In this document: positions 1 through 36,031 of the stretch, one piece after another
How the letters are laid out: each line of letters opens with the position of its first letter
How positions within the stretch are numbered: the first letter of the stretch is position 1
Virus record (IMG/VR): IMGVR_UViG_3300045988_159823
Span: 1 to 36,263 of that record
Origin: a virus
Taxonomy: Duplodnaviria > Heunggongvirae > Uroviricota > Caudoviricetes
Strand: one strand, 5' to 3'
DNA length: 36,263 bases
Notes under the pieces: model-generated
The model's database searches: none
What the model saw: the letters and a program-made list of their open reading frames with translations, nothing else
Told to the model about the DNA's origin: nothing
Position numbers and translations under genes: made by a program

Positions 1-54
1 GGTAGCTCCCTCTGACAAAAGCAGGAATGATGCCATTTTCTCGTTATTTCTGCA

Positions 55-80
55 TTTTCATAAACGTTGGTTTGGGAGAA
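55..80. repeat. hix/gix/pix-like 26-bp inversion crossover site (left copy, inverted orientation)
   Basis: Reverse complement TTCTCCCAAACCAACGTTTATGAAAA matches the site at 1585..1610 over its first 14 bp and resembles the Hin/Gin-family imperfect dyad AAACC-AA-GGTTT. Confidence 0.55.
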
Positions 81-434
81 GCGGCAAAACGGAATGTAGG
101 TAACGGGCAAAACCAAATTCCGGATATGGCGGCGTTTGCCAGTTCACTTTCATCAACGGGTTTTCAAAAACTCCCTTCAGGTCTGATTATTCAGTGGGGT
201 ATTGTCAGTGGAGCATCAAACTATACGGTGACTTACCCGGTAACATTCCCAAATCGTTCACTTGCGCTGTTGGCTGTGCCACATACAACGTCGTTGGCTG
301 GTATATCTGCAATGGGCATTGCGAACTGTTCTGATATCACCAAATCACAGTTCTATATAATTGTTGGCGGTATATCTCAGGGAGAAATTGTCAAATATGA
401 AAGGTCCTGTTTTTGGGTAGCAATCGGTGTATAG
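81..434 (+). CDS. alternative (silent) tail-fibre C-terminal cassette inside the invertible segment; no own start, expected to be fused to the constant fibre N-terminus after inversion
   Basis: Open frame 27..434 ends in a tail-fibre-like C-terminus, lies opposite the expressed fibre gene, and is followed by its own tfa-like ORF. Confidence 0.5.
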   Translation, partial: AAKRNVGNGQNQIPDMAAFASSLSSTGFQKLPSGLIIQWGIVSGASNYTVTYPVTFPNRSLALLAVPHTTSLAGISAMGIANCSDITKSQFYIIVGGISQGEIVKYERSCFWVAIGV

Positions 435-442
435 GTATATCT

Positions 443-838
443 ATGATTTATTTCTCAAAATCGACTAATGGTTTTTTCTTTGATGGTATAAACAGCGACA
501 TGCCTGCTGACATTGTTGAGATAAGTACAGACTTATACAATGAATTAATTGCCGGACAGCAGGAAGGGGGTAAATTAATCACGTCAGATGAAAATGGTTT
601 ACCGGTACTGAAATCTCCGGCGATTGATTATGTCGCACGTGCTGAAAATCAGCGAATGCAGTTACTTGCTCATGCCGATAATGTCACAGCTGACTGGCGA
701 GTGGAATTAATGCTTGGTGATATCAGCAGTACAGATAAAGAAAAACTATCCGCCTGGATGGACTACAAAAAAGAAGTAAAAGCCGTCGACACTTCGACGG
801 CTCCTGAGATTAGCTGGCCTGAGTTACCGGAGGTGTAG
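443..838 (+). CDS. tail fibre assembly protein (Tfa), alternate cassette
   Basis: Tfa-like C-terminus (...LSAWMDYKKEVKAVDTSTAPEISWPELPEV); start taken at internal Met 11 of track ORF 413..838, just after the stop of the fibre cassette. Confidence 0.6.
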   Translation: MIYFSKSTNGFFFDGINSDMPADIVEISTDLYNELIAGQQEGGKLITSDENGLPVLKSPAIDYVARAENQRMQLLAHADNVTADWRVELMLGDISSTDKEKLSAWMDYKKEVKAVDTSTAPEISWPELPEV

Positions 839-1247
839 GCCATTCAATATCTGGAGCACTGGAGGTATCCACCAGTTCCAGTGCGTCCAGGTAATCCAGC
901 CACAAATTATATAGTGCCAGTTCCTCGTCTTTCAGACGACCAATAGCGGCTTTACCGGGCCATTGTTTACTGTTCATGTATTCGTTGGCCTGATTAAGCA
1001 ATAATTGCCTTTCTGATTCTGCCTGTTGAATAAGTTCTTCATGCGATGGTGGAGGTATTAGTGCCCATGTGGGTAATCCATTTTTTCCTGCAACACGAAT
1101 TTTGTCATATGGGGGCGTATTGATTGCAAATTCATTATAAACATCATCACTGACAGCCAGAGCATCATCTGGCCATGAATTTGCATTAATGTAATCATCC
1201 TTAAGCGCAGGATTCACAAAAATGTTTAATGATGGACTATAAAACAT
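810..1247 (-). CDS. tail fibre assembly protein (Tfa), expressed cassette
   Basis: 145 aa; C-terminal motif ...LWLDYLDALELVDTSSAPDIEWP typical of Tfa chaperones; directly downstream of the fibre gene. Confidence 0.75.
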   Translation of the reverse strand: MFYSPSLNIFVNPALKDDYINANSWPDDALAVSDDVYNEFAINTPPYDKIRVAGKNGLPTWALIPPPSHEELIQQAESERQLLLNQANEYMNSKQWPGKAAIGRLKDEELALYNLWLDYLDALELVDTSSAPDIEWPTPPVTQAS

Positions 1248-1248
1248 A

Positions 1249-1887
1249 TTAACCCCCTATAGCGATATAACGACCTAATACAGCATTTGCAGCAGTCGCT
1301 ATGCTTGAAAAACCGCGGAACTGATTTGATGTAATTGCAGAAGCCGACAGGATTCCTGCGCCTGAAGGTGTATGCCCCACATGACTAACTATCATTCCAT
1401 AACATGCTGACGGAAAGGCAAAAGGAAAATCATTAAGATATCCGGCATCTTCACCACCAGACCCACCAAATTTCGCCTGCCCCCACTGAATAATCAGTGT
1501 TCTCCGGGAACCTGAAATAATTAACGGAATCGTTACATACCCATTCAGACCAATGACACCCGATGCAGTGCCAGCCAGAGATAATTCTCCCAAACCAAGG
1601 TTTTCGAGAGCTGTTTTCACGGTGCCATCCGATTTGATATCGCCAAACGGATTCTTGCGGCTTAACAGCAGCGCACGAAGCGCGGTAAGCAGCTGGTCGT
1701 GCCTCCCCTTCTCCAGGCTGGCACCGGATGCCTCCACCACACTGCAAAGCTCCTCCTGTAACATGTCAAAGTAGTCATCATCCAGCTCGGTGGCAGGTGT
1801 ACCGGTCTGGGGGTTACCACGGGTAAAACCGTTCTTACCCGCGCCGAACTTATCCTTCTGCGCGGTTTTCGTGTCTATACGATGCAT
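1249..1887 (-). CDS. side tail fibre protein (constant N-terminus plus variable C-terminus)
   Basis: 212 aa, Gly/Ser-rich fibre-like C-terminus; follows the DUF2313-like gene and contains the crossover site. Confidence 0.75.
   Translation of the reverse strand: MHRIDTKTAQKDKFGAGKNGFTRGNPQTGTPATELDDDYFDMLQEELCSVVEASGASLEKGRHDQLLTALRALLLSRKNPFGDIKSDGTVKTALENLGLGELSLAGTASGVIGLNGYVTIPLIISGSRRTLIIQWGQAKFGGSGGEDAGYLNDFPFAFPSACYGMIVSHVGHTPSGAGILSASAITSNQFRGFSSIATAANAVLGRYIAIGG
1585..1610. repeat. hix/gix/pix-like 26-bp inversion crossover site (right copy, inside the fibre gene)
   Basis: TTCTCCCAAACCAAGGTTTTCGAGAG, an imperfect dyad close to the Hin/Gin/Pin site consensus; inverted partner at 55..80. 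Confidence 0.6.
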
Positions 1888-1890
1888 GGA

Positions 1891-2475
1891 TTACTCCGGA
1901 TATTTAAAAATTACGTAGGTATGCGACGGGCAGAGTTTATTAAGCACACACTCGACAACGGTGTCGCCCCAGATACGCAGTGCGGAATCACAGGGATCGC
2001 CACATGTCATCCAGGTGGTGTTGGTGGCGGCTGGCATGTTGACCTGCCAGTAATACCGCCATTCAGGCGCATTCACCGCGTCAGTACAGGCCGATGAGCA
2101 GGTGAACGTGCTTTTGTCGTATCGCGTGATGTTGGCATCCGGTCTGCCCAGGGCAGCAAGCTGTGCAAGATAAAAATTCTCGTTGATGCCGCCCGCCAGG
2201 TTAACCTTCGCATCCAGCCGTTGCTGACGCTGGCGAAGGGTCTGTGTCCCTGCAGGAATACATTCATCCGGCAGGCCGCACAGACGCTCCCAGCGGTTTA
2301 TCAGTTCGGTGGTGGTGCGCGGATCCAGCTCCCGCATCAGGGCATCCGCACGCTGATGAACACGGGTTAATGACGGTGCTGCACCGGCAATCGCCGGATC
2401 GCTGGCTGACCACGCCGGACCGGGCGGCAGCAGTGCCGACAACAGACGGATGTAATCATCGTTTGTCACGTCCAT
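1891..2475 (-). CDS. tail protein, DUF2313 / YmfQ / Mu gp48-like
   Basis: 194 aa; position between baseplate J and the tail fibre as in Mu and e14. Confidence 0.65.
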
Positions 2476-7009: not shown

Positions 7010-7468
7010 TTACTTACGGCCCGTAAACGGGCTGCCCGGATAGGGAATCGATAGCTGCTCTCCCATTTTATCCTCTTCAAGCTGGTGCTTTATGTAATCC
7101 TGTATCTTCGCCGTGTTCTTACCCACTGTATCGACGTAGTACCCTCTGCACCAGAACTCCCTGTTCCTGTATTTGAATTTCAAATCACCAAACTGCTCGT
7201 AAAGCATCAGACTGCTTTTCCATTTCAGATATCCCATAAAGCCGGATACGCTCATTTTGGGCGGGATCTCCACAAGCATATGGATATGATCTGCACAGCA
7301 TTCAGCTTCCAGAATCCGTACACTTTTCCACTCACACAGCTTTCTCAAAATACTGCCTATTGCTCTACGCTTCTCTCTGTAGAACACCTGTCTTCGGTAT
7401 TTTGGCGCAAAAACTATGTGATATTTACAGTTCCATCGGGTGTGCGCTAAGCTCTTTTCGTTCCCCAT
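7010..7468 (-). CDS. tnpA: IS200 transposase TnpA (HUH / Y1 family)
   Basis: MGNEKSLAHTRWNCKYHIVFAPKYRRQVFY... and the HIHMLVEIPPKMSVS motif are characteristic of IS200 TnpA; start at internal Met 18 of the track ORF. Confidence 0.85.
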   Translation of the reverse strand: MGNEKSLAHTRWNCKYHIVFAPKYRRQVFYREKRRAIGSILRKLCEWKSVRILEAECCADHIHMLVEIPPKMSVSGFMGYLKWKSSLMLYEQFGDLKFKYRNREFWCRGYYVDTVGKNTAKIQDYIKHQLEEDKMGEQLSIPYPGSPFTGRK

Positions 7469-7611
7469 TGGGACCCCCTTTTGATTTCTTGTTTGACACT
7501 TGCAGTTGCCAGACCGCAAGGTGTTTTAACAAATCAAAAGGGGTTTTAATAACTGGCTCAAAGCTGAAAGCTTTCCGGACCCCCCAGCCTAGCTGGGGGT
7601 TTTCTGTGCAC

Positions 7612-26244: not shown

Positions 26245-26564
26245 ACTTTCAGGCCCCTCTCATGTAACCAGTGGGCTGCACGCAGCCTGCCGTTTTCCTC
26301 ACCGGCAAGCAGTGCGCGGATAATCCCGACCGCCTCGCTGTCGTCGTCCTTCACCGCGGTATGAAGCGTTATCCCCCGGGCCACGCCACGCTTTATCGTG
26401 ATGACGCCTTTTTTCTCCAGTGCGCGAAGATGCTCTACCGCTGCATTCACTGAACGGTATCCCAGCATGGTTGCCACCTCCTGATTGGTTGGCGGAAAGC
26501 CACGCTCTTTCTGATAAGAAATCAGCATATCCAGCACCTGCTGGCATTGAGTTAACGTCGTCAT
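26241..26564 (-). CDS. LexA N-terminal DNA-binding-domain homologue without the S24 autoprotease domain
   Basis: MTTLTQCQQVLDMLISYQKERGFPPTNQEVATMLGYRSVNAAVEHLRALEKKGVITIKRGVARGITL aligns with the LexA winged-helix domain; the ATG overlaps the upstream stop (TAATG). Confidence 0.65.
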   Translation of the reverse strand: MTTLTQCQQVLDMLISYQKERGFPPTNQEVATMLGYRSVNAAVEHLRALEKKGVITIKRGVARGITLHTAVKDDDSEAVGIIRALLAGEENGRLRAAHWLHERGLKV

Positions 26565-26779
26565 TAAGCCACCACGTAATTCCCTGACAGATACCACTCT
26601 TCACACGATGCAGCGCGCTTGCTGCTTTTCCGTAAGCACCGCTCACGACGCGCCAGAAAATTGTTTCGTTCTGGCTGGGAGTGGCTTTCACGGAATGCCG
26701 CCATCCACACGGTTGCAGCACGACGAAATAAGCCCCTGGACTCCAGTTCTTCCGCCTGGCGGGCCAGGCACAAAATCAC
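26564..26779 (-). CDS. PerC/ANR-like small regulator (start uncertain, possibly GTG)
   Basis: C-terminal AEELESRGLFRRAATVWMAAF resembles the PerC-family motif; the 5' part of the track ORF overlaps another ORF in a different frame. Confidence 0.35.
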   Translation of the reverse strand: MILCLARQAEELESRGLFRRAATVWMAAFRESHSQPERNNFLARRERCLRKSSKRAASCEEWYLSGNYVVA

Positions 26780-26825
26780 CCGCGGGTCGTTAGTGCCGAC
26801 ATAGAAATTGCGTACAGGTCTGGTT

Positions 26826-27059
26826 TCACGAACTGGTTGCCGTTCCGCCTCCGGCGATATCTTTGTCTGGCGCGGGAAATGTCTGCGTGTATCCCCCTTC
26901 ACAACGGTGAGCCACACGCCCACTCTGACGTAACTTGCTTGCTGACTGCAGAACGCGCTGCCGTGAGTAACCTGCAAAAGCATCAGCAATGTCTCCGGAA
27001 GTACACCCAGGATGGGCTTCAATGAATTTCTGAACTTCATTCAAAAGACTCATAATCAC
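26826..27059 (-). CDS. small protein translationally coupled to the O-like gene (possible winged-helix)
   Basis: 77-aa ORF whose ATG overlaps the replication gene stop (ATGA); N-terminus looks protein-like. Confidence 0.35.
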   Translation of the reverse strand: MIMSLLNEVQKFIEAHPGCTSGDIADAFAGYSRQRVLQSASKLRQSGRVAHRCEGGYTQTFPAPDKDIAGGGTATSS

Positions 27060-29943: not shown

Positions 29944-30250
29944 ATACTTGGCAATGTACCTTTGAGATACATAATGTACCCAAGAGAAACAACAAACAGG
30001 CAGGACGTCCACGAAGTAACCCCCTGGAGCATATGAAGTCCAGGCTGATTCGTTAGCAACAAAAAAGCGCCCTACCGGACGCTTCGCTCTTTAAAAATCA
30101 GTAACCCTCACTTTGGGCCTGGATCTGGTGGCCTGGGATGAGGTGGAATATGAAAAGGCTCTATTGGTCGACTCATTATCCAATCCTATTATGTCTCATT
30201 TCTTCGGTTTCGGTGGTTTCGGCTTCGGAGGTACATGTCCGTGAACTGGA

Positions 30251-31978: not shown

Positions 31979-32224
31979 ATGCTTCAAATGCTGACACTTG
32001 AGGAATGGGCTGCGGAAAAATTTAGGAGTAATCCTCCAAGTGTGTCCACATTACGTCGTTATGCTAAGCAGAATTTATTTTGTCCACCGGCAATGAAACA
32101 AGGTCGACTATGGCGAGTGCGTGAGGATGCAGAGTTAGTTGGGGAGTTAGTTACTCCAGTAATAAAGAAAAGTGATTCTATTATTCTACAAAGGATTTTA
32201 GGTAATGGCAGCCAGACCACGTAA
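31979..32224 (+). CDS. xis: excisionase (lambda Xis-like)
   Basis: LTLEEWAAEKF ... STLRRYAKQNLFCPPAMKQGRLWRVRED parallels lambda Xis; overlaps the int start; exact start ambiguous (31964, 31979 or 31988). Confidence 0.7.
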   Translation: MLQMLTLEEWAAEKFRSNPPSVSTLRRYAKQNLFCPPAMKQGRLWRVREDAELVGELVTPVIKKSDSIILQRILGNGSQTT

Positions 32225-33335
32225 AAATAATGTTTCAGTCCCGAACTTGTATCCGCTTTATAGCAGAAAAGTAAATAAAGTCTATTGGCGATATAAACAT
32301 CCAGTGACCGGGAAGTTTCATTCTTTAGGCACAAACGAAGCTGAAGCCATTGCTATTGCCACTGAGGCAAATTCACGCCTGGCTGAGCAAAGAACCCGGC
32401 AGATTCTGGCTATCAGTGACAGGATCGCAACCAGCAAAGGAAAAGCAATCACAACGTCAACCTGGTTAGATCGCTATCAAGCAATCCAGGATGACAGACT
32501 GGAAAGTGGCGATATAAAGCTCAACACCTATAAACAGAAAGCCAAACCAGTATCCTTGCTCAGGGAACGAGCAGGAATGAAATTAATTTCATCAGTTGAT
32601 GCAAGGGATATAGCACAATTGCTTGACGAGTATATCACTGCCGGGCAACCGAGGATGGCGCAAGTAGTCCGCTCCGTTCTAATTGATGTATTCAAGGAGG
32701 CACAACACTATGGGGAAGTCCCTCCGGGCTATAATCCTGCACTGGCAACCAAACAACCCAGAAGAAAAATTACCCGACAACGGTTAAATCTTGAAGAGTG
32801 GCAAAAAATCTTTGATATTGCAGATGCCAGTCATCGTTATATGGGGAATGCCATGCTGTTAGCACTGGTTACCGGCCAACGGTTAGGTGATATCTCACGT
32901 ATGAAATTTAGCGATATTTGGGATGATCATCTTCACGTCATCCAGGAAAAAACCGGGAGCAAAATCGCCATCCCGCTTTCTCTGCGCCTCAATGCGATTA
33001 ACTGGAGTTTGCGCGATGTAGTAGCCCGTTGCCGTGACTATGCTGTCAGCCCATACCTTGTACATTTTTTTCGTACTACTTCACAGGCTGAACGCGGCGC
33101 ACAGGTTAAAGCCAATACCTTGACTATGAATTTCAGTAAAGCAAGAGATTTAGCAGGAATTGATTGGGGGAAAGGTTCACCTGCCACATTCCATGAACAA
33201 CGGTCTTTATCTGAACGTCTGTACAAAGAACAGGGGATCGATACTAGAAAGCTACTGGGCCATAAAACCCAGCAGCAAACAGATCGCTACCATGATGACC
33301 GAGGGAAAGATTGGAGTAAAATAGCTATAATTTGA
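32205..33335 (+). CDS. int: tyrosine integrase, lambda Int family
   Basis: Collinear with lambda Int including ...TFHEQRSLSERLYKEQ...LLGHKTQQQTDRYHDDRGKDWSKI (catalytic R-H-R-Y region). Confidence 0.9.
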   Translation: MAARPRKNNVSVPNLYPLYSRKVNKVYWRYKHPVTGKFHSLGTNEAEAIAIATEANSRLAEQRTRQILAISDRIATSKGKAITTSTWLDRYQAIQDDRLESGDIKLNTYKQKAKPVSLLRERAGMKLISSVDARDIAQLLDEYITAGQPRMAQVVRSVLIDVFKEAQHYGEVPPGYNPALATKQPRRKITRQRLNLEEWQKIFDIADASHRYMGNAMLLALVTGQRLGDISRMKFSDIWDDHLHVIQEKTGSKIAIPLSLRLNAINWSLRDVVARCRDYAVSPYLVHFFRTTSQAERGAQVKANTLTMNFSKARDLAGIDWGKGSPATFHEQRSLSERLYKEQGIDTRKLLGHKTQQQTDRYHDDRGKDWSKIAII

Positions 33336-34185
33336 CTCTTGTAGGATCCATATCATCAGGAATAGAAATGCTATCACAAAAAAAGATTACTTCTGGCCCT
33401 TGGTACCTAGATTGAGCACTATAGCTGATACCGTACTCAATTTTTCTAAGACCAGTGTACATGTTGTTTATTTCAACAGTATTATCGTAAGATACAATCC
33501 ATGGATGCTTTGAATTAGATTTTATAATATTAGCAATTTCGACATGATCATCATGACTATAATGGTTTTGATACAAGCCCTTTCCTTTAACATAATATGG
33601 AGGGTCAAGATAAAGCAATGTTTTTAATGGGAATCCAGTTACAGTATTTTGCAAGAATGATTTAGCATCTTGGTTATAGATACAAATATCAGATTTACGG
33701 TCTGCTATTACCTTAATACGGTTTACTAAATCAACCTTATTAAATCGAGCATCTATTTTCCATTTTCCATTTTGTTCCTTACCACCAATTACACCACCTA
33801 ACAAAATTCCTGACCGATTTGTTCGATTAAGGAAAAACGTAGCGAATCCAACTTCCAATGAGGAATAATCACATTGATTACTAATGATATTTTTATTCTT
33901 ATACCATTCATCCATATTCACAGGGGTTTTTTCAATTAATTGGCAAAACTGATCAGTTTCTTCTAGAATTGACCGCCAAAAACAAAAAATGGCGTTATTA
34001 AGATCGTTTAAATGTATACGTGATGCTTTCCCAGACAAAAGTAAATTAATGGCTACTCCAGCACCACCAGCATACGGCTCAACATATTCGCAACCATCTA
34101 AACCATTGATCATAATGATCTTTGATAGATAGTTAGTTAATTTACCTTTACCACCAGGATACCGTAATGGGGTGCTGAATCTCAT
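33325..34185 (-). CDS. N6-adenine DNA methyltransferase, Dam (D12) family
   Basis: RYPGGK, VEPYAGGAGVAINLL (SAM-binding) and LYLDPPYY (catalytic DPPY) motifs in Dam-like order; AT-rich; 3' end overlaps the int 3' end by 11 bp. Confidence 0.8.
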   Translation of the reverse strand: MRFSTPLRYPGGKGKLTNYLSKIIMINGLDGCEYVEPYAGGAGVAINLLLSGKASRIHLNDLNNAIFCFWRSILEETDQFCQLIEKTPVNMDEWYKNKNIISNQCDYSSLEVGFATFFLNRTNRSGILLGGVIGGKEQNGKWKIDARFNKVDLVNRIKVIADRKSDICIYNQDAKSFLQNTVTGFPLKTLLYLDPPYYVKGKGLYQNHYSHDDHVEIANIIKSNSKHPWIVSYDNTVEINNMYTGLRKIEYGISYSAQSRYQGPEVIFFCDSISIPDDMDPTRVKL

Positions 34186-34254
34186 ATCTTATACTCAACG
34201 ATCAAAAACTACTGTATATAATACCACATTATCTGGTTTCAGGATACCATAGAA

Positions 34255-35964
34255 TCACTTAGTCACAACGCTCTTAACTCTTTCAGGATTAAGGCCAAAT
34301 TCTTCCCCTATAACAAAGCGCAATGCTTCGATAAGAGTATCGTTAAACTTGTCTACCAATATTTTATTATCCTCAGCCCACTTTCTATATGGATTGTATT
34401 TTACACCGCCACATTTTATCAGTTCTTGTAATGTTTTCTCCTGTATAAATTTTTTGAATAACTCTCTTATCCTTGAACCATCAAGTTTATCTTTATTAAC
34501 TTCTTTTATTTTTTCTTTTAATTTAATTTTTTGCTCACTAATATTAAGAGCAGTAATTATGGGGTTGGACTTTTCGAAAAAATAGTCTTTAGTATAATGT
34601 AGTGGGTTGTTCTTCCAGAAATCATCACTGGCATCTAGGTTAAATAGATATTCGAAAATTATTTGATCCGGTGGTAATATTCCCGGTAATTTAACCACAT
34701 TCGCATGCTTGACATTCTCCACGTCAGCATCTAAAACAATTATTGCAGACTTATAAAAACCAGGAACTTTTTTGTTTAAAAGTTGAATATAGTTTTTGCA
34801 TCCAAGAGTTATGTCCTTATTTAAATTAAGTAATCTTCTTATATCTCTGCGTGTTACAACAGAACAAAATAAATCATAATTTTCCTTATCCTCAAAGAAA
34901 ACATTAGTCTTCCGAATAGACTCCTGCTTATTCAACTGTAATGTTTCATTGCAAAGATCTAGCCTAATATCTCCCCATGAATAATCATTCTTTACTTCTA
35001 ACTTACCGTAAGTATTTGTTAGATATATCACCTTATAGTTTTTGCTGTCTCTTTTCGTATATTCATATACTGAATTTATAATCTCTGGTGAATGAGTGGT
35101 AAATACCACCTGTAAATCTAACTTCTTAGTGATAGATGATAATTTCTCAATTAAACGTCTCTGTGCTGCAGGAAACAATCCAGCATCAATTTCATCTATC
35201 AATAGAATCCCACCATGATAATCTGGATATTCAGCCTGAAGTTTTTTAAATGAAAAAATAGCTTGTAGTATTTGTCCTAAATTATCCTCGCCAACAGAAA
35301 CAGATTGATGATCGTATTTTTCACCACTAACAACCATCGAGTCTATAGTACCATTTGTTTTTGTTAGATTATTGGCATTTCGTACACCTAAAATATATGA
35401 ACTTAATTGAACAAAGTCTTGTCTATTTAAATTCATAAATTCATCAATATCAGACACAGTGTATTTTTGACGATCTGGCACGGGTGTAAGGCGCTTCATA
35501 CTCAAGTAAATTAGCGGATGTGTAACCTTTCTGCTATCACTAGCCCCATTAGTAGTAGTATTATTACGAACCGTTGCTCGAGGGTATGAATGTTCACTCC
35601 TTAAATATAGACCGAGTTTTAATTGTTCCAACTCCTTCTGTTCAGCTCCATCATATATAATGACATCAACATCCATAGAACTTGGCGTATCAAACTTTTC
35701 TGAGAGCCGGAAATGCTCTCTAAACTGAGATGAGAAAGGTTTTCCAGCAAGAGTCTTATATTTTCTCAGATCTACCTTTGGCTCTTGAGTATAATCGGTC
35801 TCAAAATTAAACATTTGGGCAGCAATGCCCAACACCGTCGATTTTGACGTACCATTTTTGCCACAAATTGCCGTTATACGTTCACCAAAATGGATCGTAC
35901 AGTCATTCAAGCCTCGAAAGCTCTTTATTTTTATTTCTTTTAGCTTGGTTATTTTTTGGGACAT
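34255..35964 (-). CDS. OLD-family-like ABC ATPase with a probable C-terminal TOPRIM nuclease domain
   Basis: Walker A GKNGTSKST, Walker B ILLIDEIDAG, H-loop TTHSPE; C-terminal FFEDKENYD plus IIVLDADVE look like a TOPRIM Glu and DxD; start at internal Met with AGGA spacing. Confidence 0.7.
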   Translation of the reverse strand: MSQKITKLKEIKIKSFRGLNDCTIHFGERITAICGKNGTSKSTVLGIAAQMFNFETDYTQEPKVDLRKYKTLAGKPFSSQFREHFRLSEKFDTPSSMDVDVIIYDGAEQKELEQLKLGLYLRSEHSYPRATVRNNTTTNGASDSRKVTHPLIYLSMKRLTPVPDRQKYTVSDIDEFMNLNRQDFVQLSSYILGVRNANNLTKTNGTIDSMVVSGEKYDHQSVSVGEDNLGQILQAIFSFKKLQAEYPDYHGGILLIDEIDAGLFPAAQRRLIEKLSSITKKLDLQVVFTTHSPEIINSVYEYTKRDSKNYKVIYLTNTYGKLEVKNDYSWGDIRLDLCNETLQLNKQESIRKTNVFFEDKENYDLFCSVVTRRDIRRLLNLNKDITLGCKNYIQLLNKKVPGFYKSAIIVLDADVENVKHANVVKLPGILPPDQIIFEYLFNLDASDDFWKNNPLHYTKDYFFEKSNPIITALNISEQKIKLKEKIKEVNKDKLDGSRIRELFKKFIQEKTLQELIKCGGVKYNPYRKWAEDNKILVDKFNDTLIEALRFVIGEEFGLNPERVKSVVTK

Positions 35965-36031
35965 ATTTTCCTTCGTCCTCATTTTGATTAAAAAAACAGA
36001 TAAACGGAAAAATGCTACCATGTAGAGAAAG

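What the first reader, a model, noticed from the sequence alone, without database searches (positions are those of the whole stretch)
55..1610. Gin/Pin-type invertible tail-fibre host-range switch; invertase gene not in the window
Two 26-bp hix-like sites in inverted orientation (55..80 and 1585..1610) bracket a segment of about 1.5 kb. The segment holds the variable C-terminus of the expressed fibre plus its Tfa on the minus strand, and a promoterless alternative fibre C-terminus plus Tfa on the plus strand. The constant fibre N-terminus (1611..1887) lies outside. This is the Mu G-segment / e14 P-segment architecture. The pin/gin-like recombinase must lie left of position 1.
Basis: partly seen in the sequence, partly recalled or inferred. 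Interest (0 to 1): 0.5.

Follow-up and report, generated by a model that had tools for sequence, protein, structure and literature searches.

The report
Phage tail-fibre flip switch, orphaned
This is the well-known invertible "P segment" that lets an e14-type E. coli prophage swap the tip of its tail fibre; it is ordinary, except that in this lineage the switch's own recombinase gene is only a short stump and the segment has flipped since that loss, so another enzyme must turn it.

Summary
Two 26-bp hix-type sites (55-80 and 1585-1610) lie in inverted orientation. Both are 26/26 identical to the two crossover sites of the K-12 e14 P segment. They flank two convergent cassettes, each a fibre C-terminus plus a Tfa chaperone. 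In-silico inversion gives an in-frame 218-aa alternative fibre, and that exact protein exists in public assemblies.

The window is a full-length e14/SfV-family prophage in icd, nearly identical to E. coli L65.

One correction. In L65 and every relative examined, the pin gene left of position 1 is a stump of about 137-144 nt. The rest was replaced by a GmrSD-type type IV restriction gene. 296 of 5,426 complete E. coli genomes share this junction.

The segment has still flipped since the truncation:
- Two near-isogenic strains differ over 10.5 kb only by the exact inversion of 81-1584.
- One assembly of the window's own lineage is identical to L65 over 10.1 kb once the segment is re-inverted.

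Inversion must therefore be catalysed in trans. The enzyme is not identified. The stump retains the region where Din-family enhancers lie.

This is a known system with different cargo alleles and an orphaned configuration. Interest is low to moderate.

The parts
55..80 (.). pin-proximal crossover site (pix/hix-type, 12-2-12). The core dinucleotide is 67-68 (TT on the plus strand, AA on the minus).
   Evidence: 26/26 identical to the K-12 e14 site next to pinE. Same layout as Mu gixR.
1585..1610 (.). Crossover site inside the fibre gene, encoding ...ENLGLGE. The core dinucleotide is 1597-1598 (AA).
   Evidence: 26/26 identical to the K-12 e14 site inside stfP. Homology with the SfV group of phages (SfV, SfI, SfII, SfIV) starts exactly here.
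67..1598 (.). Invertible P segment, crossover to crossover. The unique interior is 81-1584 (1504 bp). GC is 40-47% against 54-60% in the adjacent tail module.
   Evidence: The exact inversion of 81-1584 is the only difference between strains 22-250 and 22-245 over 10.5 kb. It is also the only difference between L020 and L65 over 10.1 kb.
1249..1887 (-). Fibre gene in the current orientation (212 aa). Residues 1-101 (1585-1887) are constant. Residues 102-212 (1252-1584, followed by the stop codon 1249-1251) are the variable receptor-binding part.
   Evidence: ORF. Gp53-like_C at residues 131-211. The N-terminal 101 aa differ from K-12 StfP by 2 residues. The exact protein is indexed in 109 blocks of public assemblies.
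810..1247 (-). Tail fibre assembly chaperone (Tfa) paired with the current fibre tip.
   Evidence: Caudo_TAP, E = 1.8e-33.
81..434 (+). Alternative fibre C-terminus (117 codons plus stop). After inversion it is fused in frame to residues 1-101, giving a 218-aa fibre.
   Evidence: In-silico inversion. Gp53-like_C, E = 4.9e-15. The exact 218-aa protein is found as P0001 on 70 contigs.
27..434 (+). ATG-initiated ORF (135 aa) that starts outside the repeat and reads through the pin-proximal site into the silent cassette. It is the counterpart of K-12 stfE.
   Evidence: The leader MMPF..IFINVGLGE is conserved in K-12 stfE and in Cartapus. Expression and function are claimed for the K-12 counterpart in PMC12529663 and were not tested here.
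443..838 (+). Alternative Tfa chaperone. It converges on the other tfa and overlaps it by 29 bp.
   Evidence: Caudo_TAP, E = 1.8e-24. The protein accession is the same (WP_000639074.1) in strain DAM, whose locus carries an intact pinE.
1..54 (.). Spacer between the pin start codon (immediately left of position 1, on the minus strand) and the crossover site. It presumably holds the pin promoter. The distance from the crossover centre to the invertase start is 67.5 bp, as in Mu.
   Evidence: The promoter role is inferred, not tested.
778..805 (-). Terminator-like hairpin with a T-run, just downstream of the active tfa on the minus strand.
   Evidence: Consensus scan only.
1891..2475 (-). ymfQ (Mu gp48-type baseplate wedge gene), directly upstream of the fibre gene in the late operon. 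Given for context.
   Evidence: Phage_Mu_Gp48, E = 1.8e-26. 97% identical to K-12 YmfQ.

Best explanation
The region is the P-segment DNA-inversion switch of a full-length e14/SfV-family prophage integrated in icd.

**How it works.** The late tail operon is read on the minus strand through ymfQ into the fibre gene. Residues 1-101 are encoded outside the segment. A Din-family serine invertase cuts both 26-bp pix sites at their AA core and exchanges the strands. This replaces the 111-residue Gp53-like receptor-binding tip and its Tfa chaperone with a 117-residue alternative tip and its own chaperone, so the host range of the particles changes.

**What is shown.**
- The sites, the in-frame alternative fusion, and both orientations in nature.
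- The cognate pin gene is reduced to its first 137-144 nt in this lineage. The deletion brought in a GmrSD type IV restriction gene.
- Inversion has happened after that truncation, including in the window's own lineage.

**What is inferred.**
- Inversion is catalysed in trans by an invertase encoded elsewhere. Candidates are a PinE/Gin/Cin-type gene of another prophage or plasmid where one is present, or a PinQ/PinR-type recombinase, which is the only candidate seen on the L65 chromosome.
- The retained stump still supplies the Fis-dependent recombinational enhancer.
- The two tips confer different receptor specificity.
For: **Sites and frame.**
- The sites are identical to the experimentally defined e14 sites (PMC12529663 gives TTGGTTTGGGAGAAGG / CCTTCTCCCAAACCAA).
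- They are unlikely to be chance.
- The alternative fusion is in frame.
- Domains are as expected for fibre tips and chaperones.

**Prophage context.** icd, ymfQ, integrase and excisionase are present. K-12 e14 synteny is shown.

**Stump.**
- Annotated as a 144-bp pseudogene and translated.
- Homology to pinE and to the Cartapus invertase ends at about nt 137.
- The same junction is in 296 of 5,426 complete genomes, in all 7 displayed assemblies with the exact 212-aa fibre, and, by sequence comparison of stump and junction with L65, in the 3 displayed assemblies with the exact 218-aa fibre.

**Flipping after truncation.**
- 10 complete genomes have the window orientation and 12 the inverted one. 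Eighteen of these 22 are listed among stump-bearing genomes.
- 22-250 and 22-245, both with the stump, differ over 10.5 kb only by the inversion of 81-1584.
- L020 becomes 0/10,100 different from L65 after re-inversion, with identical IS200, stump and GmrSD gene.

**Trans candidates.**
- The L65 chromosome has no second pinE-like place and one place beyond the bait for a pinQ query.
- 48 of the 60 listed stump genomes have further pinE-like places.
- DAM and ANT show what such a place can be: a second SfV-like prophage with an intact pinE.
- PinQ and PinR are reported to invert the e14 P segment in trans (PMC12529663).

**Enhancer.** The Hin enhancer is 65 bp long and lies 99 bp from hix (PMC3798978). 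At the same spacing it would fall at about pin nt 32-110, inside the stump. The 67.5-bp distance from site to start codon and the stretch GTATCAACAAATGACCAGAA are shared with Mu gin.
Against: - No invertase was located or shown to act in the source strain.
- In K-12 a pinE deletion is reported to lock the segment although pinQ and pinR are present (PMC12529663). A PinQ-type enzyme at native level may therefore not be enough. That deletion probably also removes the enhancer, which complicates the comparison.
- The second place in L65 for the pinQ query was not located or checked for integrity.
- The last 45 kb of plasmid pL65-2 and a 1.2-kb replicon were not read.
- Enhancer retention rests on spacing and sequence conservation only.
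- An IS200 sits inside the tail operon, so particle production, and hence any host-range role, is uncertain in this lineage.
- The orientation in an assembly is the majority state of a culture. It gives no flipping rate.
Confidence: 0.85

Rival explanations
1. Frozen relic in the source strain. The sites and cassettes are intact, but without pin the segment no longer inverts in this particular strain. The two orientations seen in relatives would then reflect flips in strains that carried a helper invertase, now absent here.
For: - pin is a stump.
- The L65 chromosome has no other pinE-like DNA at blastn sensitivity.
- The recombinase genes annotated in the 100 kb of pL65-2 that were read lie beside Tn3-family transposase or IS genes, and none is annotated as an invertase.
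- K-12 without pinE is reported locked (PMC12529663).
- Four stump genomes show neither a pinE-like nor a pinQ-like place on the chromosome.
Against: - L020 is identical to L65 over 10.1 kb except for the inversion, so a flip happened very recently in this lineage.
- The exact 212-aa and 218-aa fibres are both common, at 109 and 141 index blocks.
- L65 has one place beyond the bait for the pinQ query, and trans inversion by PinQ/PinR is published (PMC12529663).
Confidence: 0.25
2. Host-domesticated anti-phage switch rather than a phage host-range switch. On this reading the functional product is the ORF that starts at the conserved ATG next to pin (27-434 here) and reads into whichever cassette lies there. 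It would be a small hydrophobic-leader protein carrying a receptor-binding tip, able to block adsorption of other phages, as proposed for StfE2 of K-12 e14.
For: - The ATG and leader are conserved in the window, K-12 and Cartapus.
- A functional claim exists for the K-12 counterpart (PMC12529663).
- The prophage carries an IS200 in the tail operon and has lost pin.
- Defence genes sit at both ends of the prophage.
Against: - The leader overlaps the pix site and the presumed pin promoter, so its conservation needs no coding explanation.
- No promoter-like site was found for it.
- The remaining structural genes are open and the integrase is intact in the window, which is consistent with a still functional phage.
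- The same cassette arrangement occurs in the phage Cartapus, a P2-like (Peduoviridae) genome record.
Confidence: 0.15
3. The inversions arise by RecA-dependent homologous recombination between the short inverted repeats, not by site-specific recombination.
For: No intact cognate invertase is present. The arms share 19 identical bases.
Against: - 19 bp is below the length usually needed for efficient RecA recombination (established knowledge).
- Every inversion seen is bounded exactly by the hix-type arms.
- A perfect 17-nt inverted repeat inside the segment (183-199 / 1481-1497) is not used in any variant examined.
- The sites are the known Pin substrates.
- The two orientations are about equally frequent, which needs a high rate.
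Confidence: 0.03

Closest known systems
P segment / pinE of the defective prophage e14 of E. coli K-12 (Plasterk and van de Putte 1985; Mehta et al. 2004; Kirigo et al. 2025, PMC12529663)
   Same: - Same chromosomal site (icd).
- Same gene order: ymfQ, fibre, tfa, tfa', fibre', pin.
- Both 26-bp crossover sites are identical.
- The constant 101 residues differ by 2.
- Same 29-bp convergent overlap of the two tfa genes.
- Same ATG-initiated ORF next to pin.
   Different: - The segment is 1.5 kb, not 1.8 kb.
- Both variable cassettes are different alleles. The current fibre as a whole is 72% identical to StfP over 171 residues. The alternative tip has nothing in common with K-12 stfE beyond the leader.
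- The prophage is full length (about 36 kb), not a 15-kb remnant.
- pin is a stump.
- mcrA is replaced by a GmrSD-type restriction gene.
G segment / gin of phage Mu
   Same: - A constant S N-terminus lies outside the segment.
- Sv-U and Sv'-U' cassettes converge inside it.
- The invertase gene lies next to the silent cassette.
- The sites have the same 12-2-12 layout with the AAACC-NN-GGTTT core.
- The crossover centre is 67.5 bp from the invertase start.
- The baseplate genes (gp45-48 type) are homologous.
   Different: - The G segment is 3 kb, with long fibres and a GA core dinucleotide.
- The Mu sites match the window site at 18/26.
- gin is intact.
Escherichia phage Cartapus (P2-like, Peduoviridae): invertible fibre cassette
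   Same: The pin-proximal cassette (alternative tip and its Tfa), the crossover site and the first 137 nt of the invertase gene are 94% identical to the L65 locus.
   Different: - The invertase is intact (188 aa).
- The constant fibre part and the tail module are of a different, P2 type.
Shigella phage SfV and relatives (SfI, SfII, SfIV)
   Same: The baseplate and tail module and the constant fibre part, up to and including the crossover-site sequence, are 95.5% identical.
   Different: SfV has a single fibre tip and one tfa, followed by gtr O-antigen genes. No second cassette and no invertase gene is annotated within 3.5 kb of the fibre genes.
Cross-acting DNA invertases (Fin of Fels-2 acting on the Salmonella H segment; PinQ/PinR acting on the e14 P segment)
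   Same: A segment inverted by a recombinase encoded in another prophage (as cited in PMC12529663).
   Different: In those cases the cognate invertase gene is still present. Here it has been deleted, so trans action is the only route.

Membership tests
Din-family (Gin/Cin/Pin/Hin) invertible segment | Two 26-bp crossover sites in inverted orientation, each an imperfect 12-2-12 dyad, with identical core dinucleotides | tested here: met
   The core is AA in both. The layout was compared with the Mu gix sites read from the Mu genome.
Din-family (Gin/Cin/Pin/Hin) invertible segment | Constant 5' gene part outside the segment and alternative 3' parts inside, both fusing in frame | tested here: met
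   One search gives 212-aa and 218-aa products. Both carry Gp53-like_C. Both exact proteins exist in public assemblies.
Din-family (Gin/Cin/Pin/Hin) invertible segment | Intact serine invertase gene adjacent to the segment | tested here: not met
   The gene would lie outside the window. In L65 and in every relative where this position was inspected, only nt 1 to about 137-144 remain.
Din-family (Gin/Cin/Pin/Hin) invertible segment | Both orientations occur in otherwise identical DNA | tested here: met
   22-250 against 22-245. L020 against L65. 10 against 12 complete genomes.
Din-family (Gin/Cin/Pin/Hin) invertible segment | Fis-bound recombinational enhancer in cis, within the 5' part of the invertase gene | tested here: inconclusive
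   The homologous stretch is retained and conserved against pinE, Cartapus and gin. Its spacing fits the 99-bp spacing plus 65-bp length of the Hin enhancer (PMC3798978). Fis binding and enhancer activity cannot be tested with these tools.
Din-family (Gin/Cin/Pin/Hin) invertible segment | Strand exchange catalysed by a serine invertase in the strain | not testable with these tools
   Only indirect evidence: one place beyond the bait for a pinQ query in L65 and further pinE-like places in most stump genomes.
e14 P region (K-12 archetype) | Prophage at icd with the order ymfQ, stfP, tfaP, tfaE, stfE, pinE, and the e14 pix sequences | tested here: met
   The exception is that pinE is truncated and mcrA is replaced.
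Shufflon (Rci tyrosine recombinase, multiple sfx repeats) | More than two short repeats delimiting several segments, plus an rci gene | tested here: not met
   Only two sites are found in 36 kb. The adjacent remnant is of the resolvase/invertase type.

The most novel reading that the evidence does not exclude
The orphaned P segment is a naturally occurring client switch. After a restriction-gene insertion deleted its invertase but spared the first ~137 nt, where the enhancer would lie, the segment is kept flipping by recombinases of unrelated prophages. In the window's lineage the candidate is a PinQ/PinR-type enzyme only about 38% identical to PinE. This configuration is carried by about 5% of complete E. 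coli genomes. It may be maintained because the host, rather than the phage, benefits from it, for example through receptor masking by the ORF at 27-434.
Probability: 0.3. Interest if true: 0.5.

Novelty: new member of a known kind. Interest (0 to 1): 0.27.

Why it matters
As a tail-fibre inversion switch this is textbook biology and adds nothing new in kind. Three points have some value.
- Annotation pipelines label all four cassette genes generically and call the stump a pseudogene. The locus would therefore be scored as dead, yet the sequence data show it has flipped since the invertase was lost.
- It gives population-level support, independent of the laboratory K-12 work, for invertible segments being driven by recombinases encoded elsewhere in the genome.
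- The slot downstream of pin holds a different nuclease-type defence gene in different e14/SfV-family prophages: McrA, GmrSD/mREase_IV or PD-T4-3. Turnover at that slot is evidently what cost this prophage its invertase.

Tried and rejected
**Locating the trans-acting invertase.**
- search_dna_similar lists only the best place per record. I used chimeric queries (the GmrSD gene as bait plus pinE or pinQ) to read the count of further places. This gives numbers, not coordinates.
- A search with the intact pinE/PD-T4-3/AraC junction from strain DAM did not bring up 22-250 among the 60 rows shown.

**L65 plasmids.** I read the first 100 kb of pL65-2 and all of pL65-4. In pL65-2 the recombinase genes lie beside Tn3-family transposase or IS genes, and none is annotated as an invertase. 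pL65-4 has no recombinase gene. The last 45 kb of pL65-2 and a 1.2-kb replicon were not read.

**The DAM/ANT pair.** I first took it for a second isogenic example of stump-locus flipping. It is a different prophage with an intact pinE and is not counted as evidence.

**Literature.**
- The original papers (Plasterk and van de Putte 1985; Mehta et al. 2004; Kutsukake et al. 2006; Johnson's 2015 review) are not held.
- The statement that Din enhancers lie within the 5' end of the invertase gene therefore rests on my own knowledge of Kahmann et al. 1985, Huber et al. 1985 and Johnson and Simon 1985, plus the spacing given in PMC3798978.
- One literature search was too broad to be useful.

**Fis sites.** I did not score Fis sites with a matrix, because the consensus is too degenerate to be informative.

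**Explanations considered and rejected.** A shufflon (only two sites, and the remnant is of the resolvase type). RecA-mediated inversion (arms too short, boundaries always at the hix arms).
Full report
**1. The observation**

The window has an inverted repeat at 62-80 and 1585-1603. It is 19 nt long, 95% complementary, with 1504 nt between the arms.
- Each is an imperfect 12-2-12 dyad: TTCTCCCAAACC-AA-GGTTTTCGAGAG, and on the minus strand TTCTCCCAAACC-AA-CGTTTATGAAAA. Both have the same AA core, which Din-type inversion requires.
- The 19-mer TTCTCCCAAACCAASGTTT, with up to three mismatches allowed, occurs exactly twice in the 36-kb window, in opposite orientation. Chance expectation is 0.04.

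| Feature | Coordinates | Size | Domain |
|---|---|---|---|
| Current fibre | 1249-1887(-) | 212 aa | Gp53-like_C |
| Its chaperone (Tfa) | 810-1247(-) | 145 aa | Caudo_TAP |
| Alternative fibre C-terminus | 81-434(+) | 117 codons | Gp53-like_C |
| Alternative Tfa | 443-838(+) | 131 aa | Caudo_TAP |

Inverting 67-1598 in silico joins residues 1-101 to the alternative cassette without a stop, giving a 218-aa fibre. GC content steps from 40-47% inside the segment to 54-60% in the tail module.

**2. What the window is**

- Bases 1-2500 match the chromosome of E. coli L65 (NZ_CP034738.1) at 100%.
- The whole window differs from L65 by two SNPs and by lacking an IS1A that splits the L65 integrase. 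The source is therefore a sister of L65.
- The window spans a complete prophage. It runs from the base after the pin start codon to the attachment site inside icd.
- The head genes are HK97-type. The tail and baseplate genes are Mu-type and 95.5% identical to Shigella phage SfV.
- K-12 e14 occupies the same site with the same order: ymfQ, stfP, tfaP, tfaE, stfE, pinE, mcrA, icd'.
- Both K-12 pix sites are 26/26 identical to the window's sites. The constant 101 residues differ by two.
- The cassettes are different alleles from K-12's.

So this is the e14 P segment itself, in a full-length relative and with different cargo. Comparison with Mu, read from its genome, shows the same plan. The Mu sites are TTATCCAAAACCTCGGTTTACAGGAA and TTCCTGTAAACCGAGGTTTTGGATAA. 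In Mu, as here, the crossover centre lies 67.5 bp from the invertase start codon.

**3. The invertase**

Something is there, but it is not a gene.
- In L65 the annotation shows a 144-bp "recombinase family protein" pseudogene that starts immediately left of window position 1.
- It translates to MLIGYVCVSTNDQKIDLQRNALNCAGCELIFEDKISGTKSESLGL and then runs into unrelated sequence.
- Pfam places it at Resolvase positions 2-52 of 145. The conserved Arg7 is Cys.
- Aligned with K-12 pinE and with the intact invertase of phage Cartapus, homology ends at about pin nt 137. There a terminator hairpin of the neighbouring gene begins.
- That neighbour is a convergent 629-aa GmrSD_N + GmrSD_C protein. It gives a full-length match to PADLOC mREase_IV and sits where K-12 has mcrA.

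How widespread the junction is:
- 296 of 5,426 complete E. coli genomes have it.
- All seven displayed assemblies that encode the exact 212-aa fibre have the stump, the GmrSD gene, the icd remnant and the same IS200.

**4. Does it still flip?**

*Complete genomes.* Ten carry this cassette pair in the window's orientation and twelve in the inverted one. Eighteen of these 22 are listed among the stump-bearing genomes.

*A near-isogenic pair.* Strains 22-250 and 22-245 both come from chicken meat in Gifu. Their chromosomes are 5,073,329 and 5,073,334 bp, with the locus at identical coordinates. Both carry the stump. Over 10.5 kb they differ only by the exact inversion of window 81-1584.

*The window's own lineage.*
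- The predicted 218-aa fibre with the L65-type constant part exists as an exact protein on 70 contigs (P0001).
- Its contexts carry the same IS200, stump and GmrSD gene.
- One of them, L020, is identical to L65 at all 10,100 compared positions once the segment is re-inverted.
- The two exact fibres are indexed in 109 and 141 blocks of the collection.

Inversion has therefore occurred after the truncation, recently, in this lineage.

**5. Who catalyses it?**

This part is inferred. A 48-residue stump cannot do it.
- With a chimeric query (GmrSD bait plus pinE), the L65 chromosome shows no second pinE-like place at blastn sensitivity. 48 of the 60 listed stump genomes show one or more, and 22-245 and 22-250 show two.
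- Strains DAM and ANT show what such a place can be. They hold a second SfV-like prophage, next to an AraC-family gene, with an intact pinE and a PD-T4-3 gene.
- With pinQ in the query, L65 shows one place beyond the bait. I could not locate it or check that it is intact.
- Kirigo et al. (PMC12529663) report that PinQ and PinR, 38% identical to PinE, invert the K-12 P segment in trans. They also report that a pinE deletion locks the segment.
- The parts of the L65 plasmids that I read hold recombinase genes only beside Tn3-family transposase or IS genes, and none is annotated as an invertase.

The enzyme in the source strain stays unidentified. A PinQ/PinR-type recombinase is the only candidate seen.

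**6. The enhancer**

Din invertases need a Fis-bound enhancer in cis. For Hin it is 65 bp long and lies 99 bp from hixL (PMC3798978). For Gin, Cin and Hin it lies within the 5' part of the invertase gene. This last point rests on my knowledge of Kahmann 1985, Huber 1985 and Johnson and Simon 1985, which are not held in the library.

At the same spacing the enhancer would fall at about pin nt 32-110. The stump keeps nt 1 to about 137. Stretches such as GTATCAACAAATGACCAGAA and TGTGCAGGATG are identical between the stump, pinE and Mu gin. The deletion thus spared all the cis elements: two sites plus the probable enhancer. Whether that reflects selection or accident cannot be told from one deletion event.

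**7. The "promoterless" cassette**

The silent cassette lies in an ORF (27-434) that begins at an ATG outside the repeat, 26 bp from the pin start.
- Its leader MMPF..IFINVGLGE is conserved in K-12 stfE and in Cartapus.
- Kirigo et al. claim that the K-12 counterpart, after inversion, makes a protein (StfE2) that blocks T2 adsorption (PMC12529663).
- The leader overlaps the pix site and the presumed pin promoter, so its conservation is not evidence of coding.
- No promoter-like site was found for it.

I keep this as a rival reading.

**8. Verdict**

The finding is real and correctly classified. It is a known system and not a new kind. The correction is that the cognate invertase is deleted in this lineage. 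The added result is that the orphaned segment has nevertheless kept inverting.

Rivals:
- Frozen relic in this one strain (0.25).
- Host-domesticated anti-phage switch (0.15).
- RecA-mediated inversion (0.03).

Interest is low to moderate.

Noticed in passing
Left of window position 1 (L001:5886-8000; NZ_CP034738.1 375370-377484): pin is cut to 137-144 nt. It is followed by a convergent 629-aa GmrSD-type type IV restriction gene (full-length match to PADLOC mREase_IV) in the place of K-12 mcrA. The same junction is in 296 of 5,426 complete E. coli genomes.
   Followed up: yes
L016/L017 (strains DAM and ANT), 1115-2500: A second SfV-like prophage next to an AraC-family gene has an intact pinE followed by a PD-T4-3 (GIY-YIG) defence gene. 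373 genomes share this arrangement. The slot downstream of pin therefore holds McrA, GmrSD or PD-T4-3 in different prophages, which makes it a variable nuclease-defence slot.
   Followed up: partly
window 33325-36021 (-): Between the integrase and icd lie a 588-aa AAA_15/AAA_21 ATPase and a D12-class adenine methylase. The methylase gives a full-length match to PADLOC PD-Lambda-5_B (E = 1.9e-121). This is probably a two-gene defence cargo at the other end of the prophage. The ATPase was not matched to PD-Lambda-5_A among the rows shown.
   Followed up: partly
window 7010-7519 (-): An IS200C transposase gene is inserted in the tail operon, between a 176-aa gene of unknown function and the DNA-circularisation gene. 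It is present in all displayed assemblies of this lineage in both orientations. It may be polar on baseplate and fibre expression.
   Followed up: partly
window 32249-32257: This is the 9-bp target where L65 carries an IS1A that splits its integrase. The window lacks the IS1A and has an intact 376-aa integrase (32205-33335). The only other differences from L65 are SNPs at 29951 and 30139.
   Followed up: yes
window 183-199 and 1481-1497: A perfect 17-nt inverted repeat inside the segment encodes the LIIQWG motif of both Gp53-like tips. It is not used as an inversion boundary in any variant examined.
   Followed up: partly
window 1585 (L019, SfV orf21): Homology with the phages SfV, SfI, SfII and SfIV starts exactly at the crossover site. 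SfV has one fibre tip and one tfa and no annotated invertase gene within 3.5 kb. The pix sequence thus marks a mosaic joint between the constant tail module and exchangeable tips.
   Followed up: partly
window 1-1136 and L008 (phage Cartapus): The pin-proximal cassette, the crossover site and the start of the invertase gene are 94% identical to a P2-like phage whose tail module is unrelated. The cassette plus invertase evidently moves as a unit between phage families.
   Followed up: partly
window 26564-27040 region (L65 annotation, yfdN): RefSeq marks a PerC-family regulator gene and one hypothetical gene of this prophage as frameshifted in L65.
   Followed up: no
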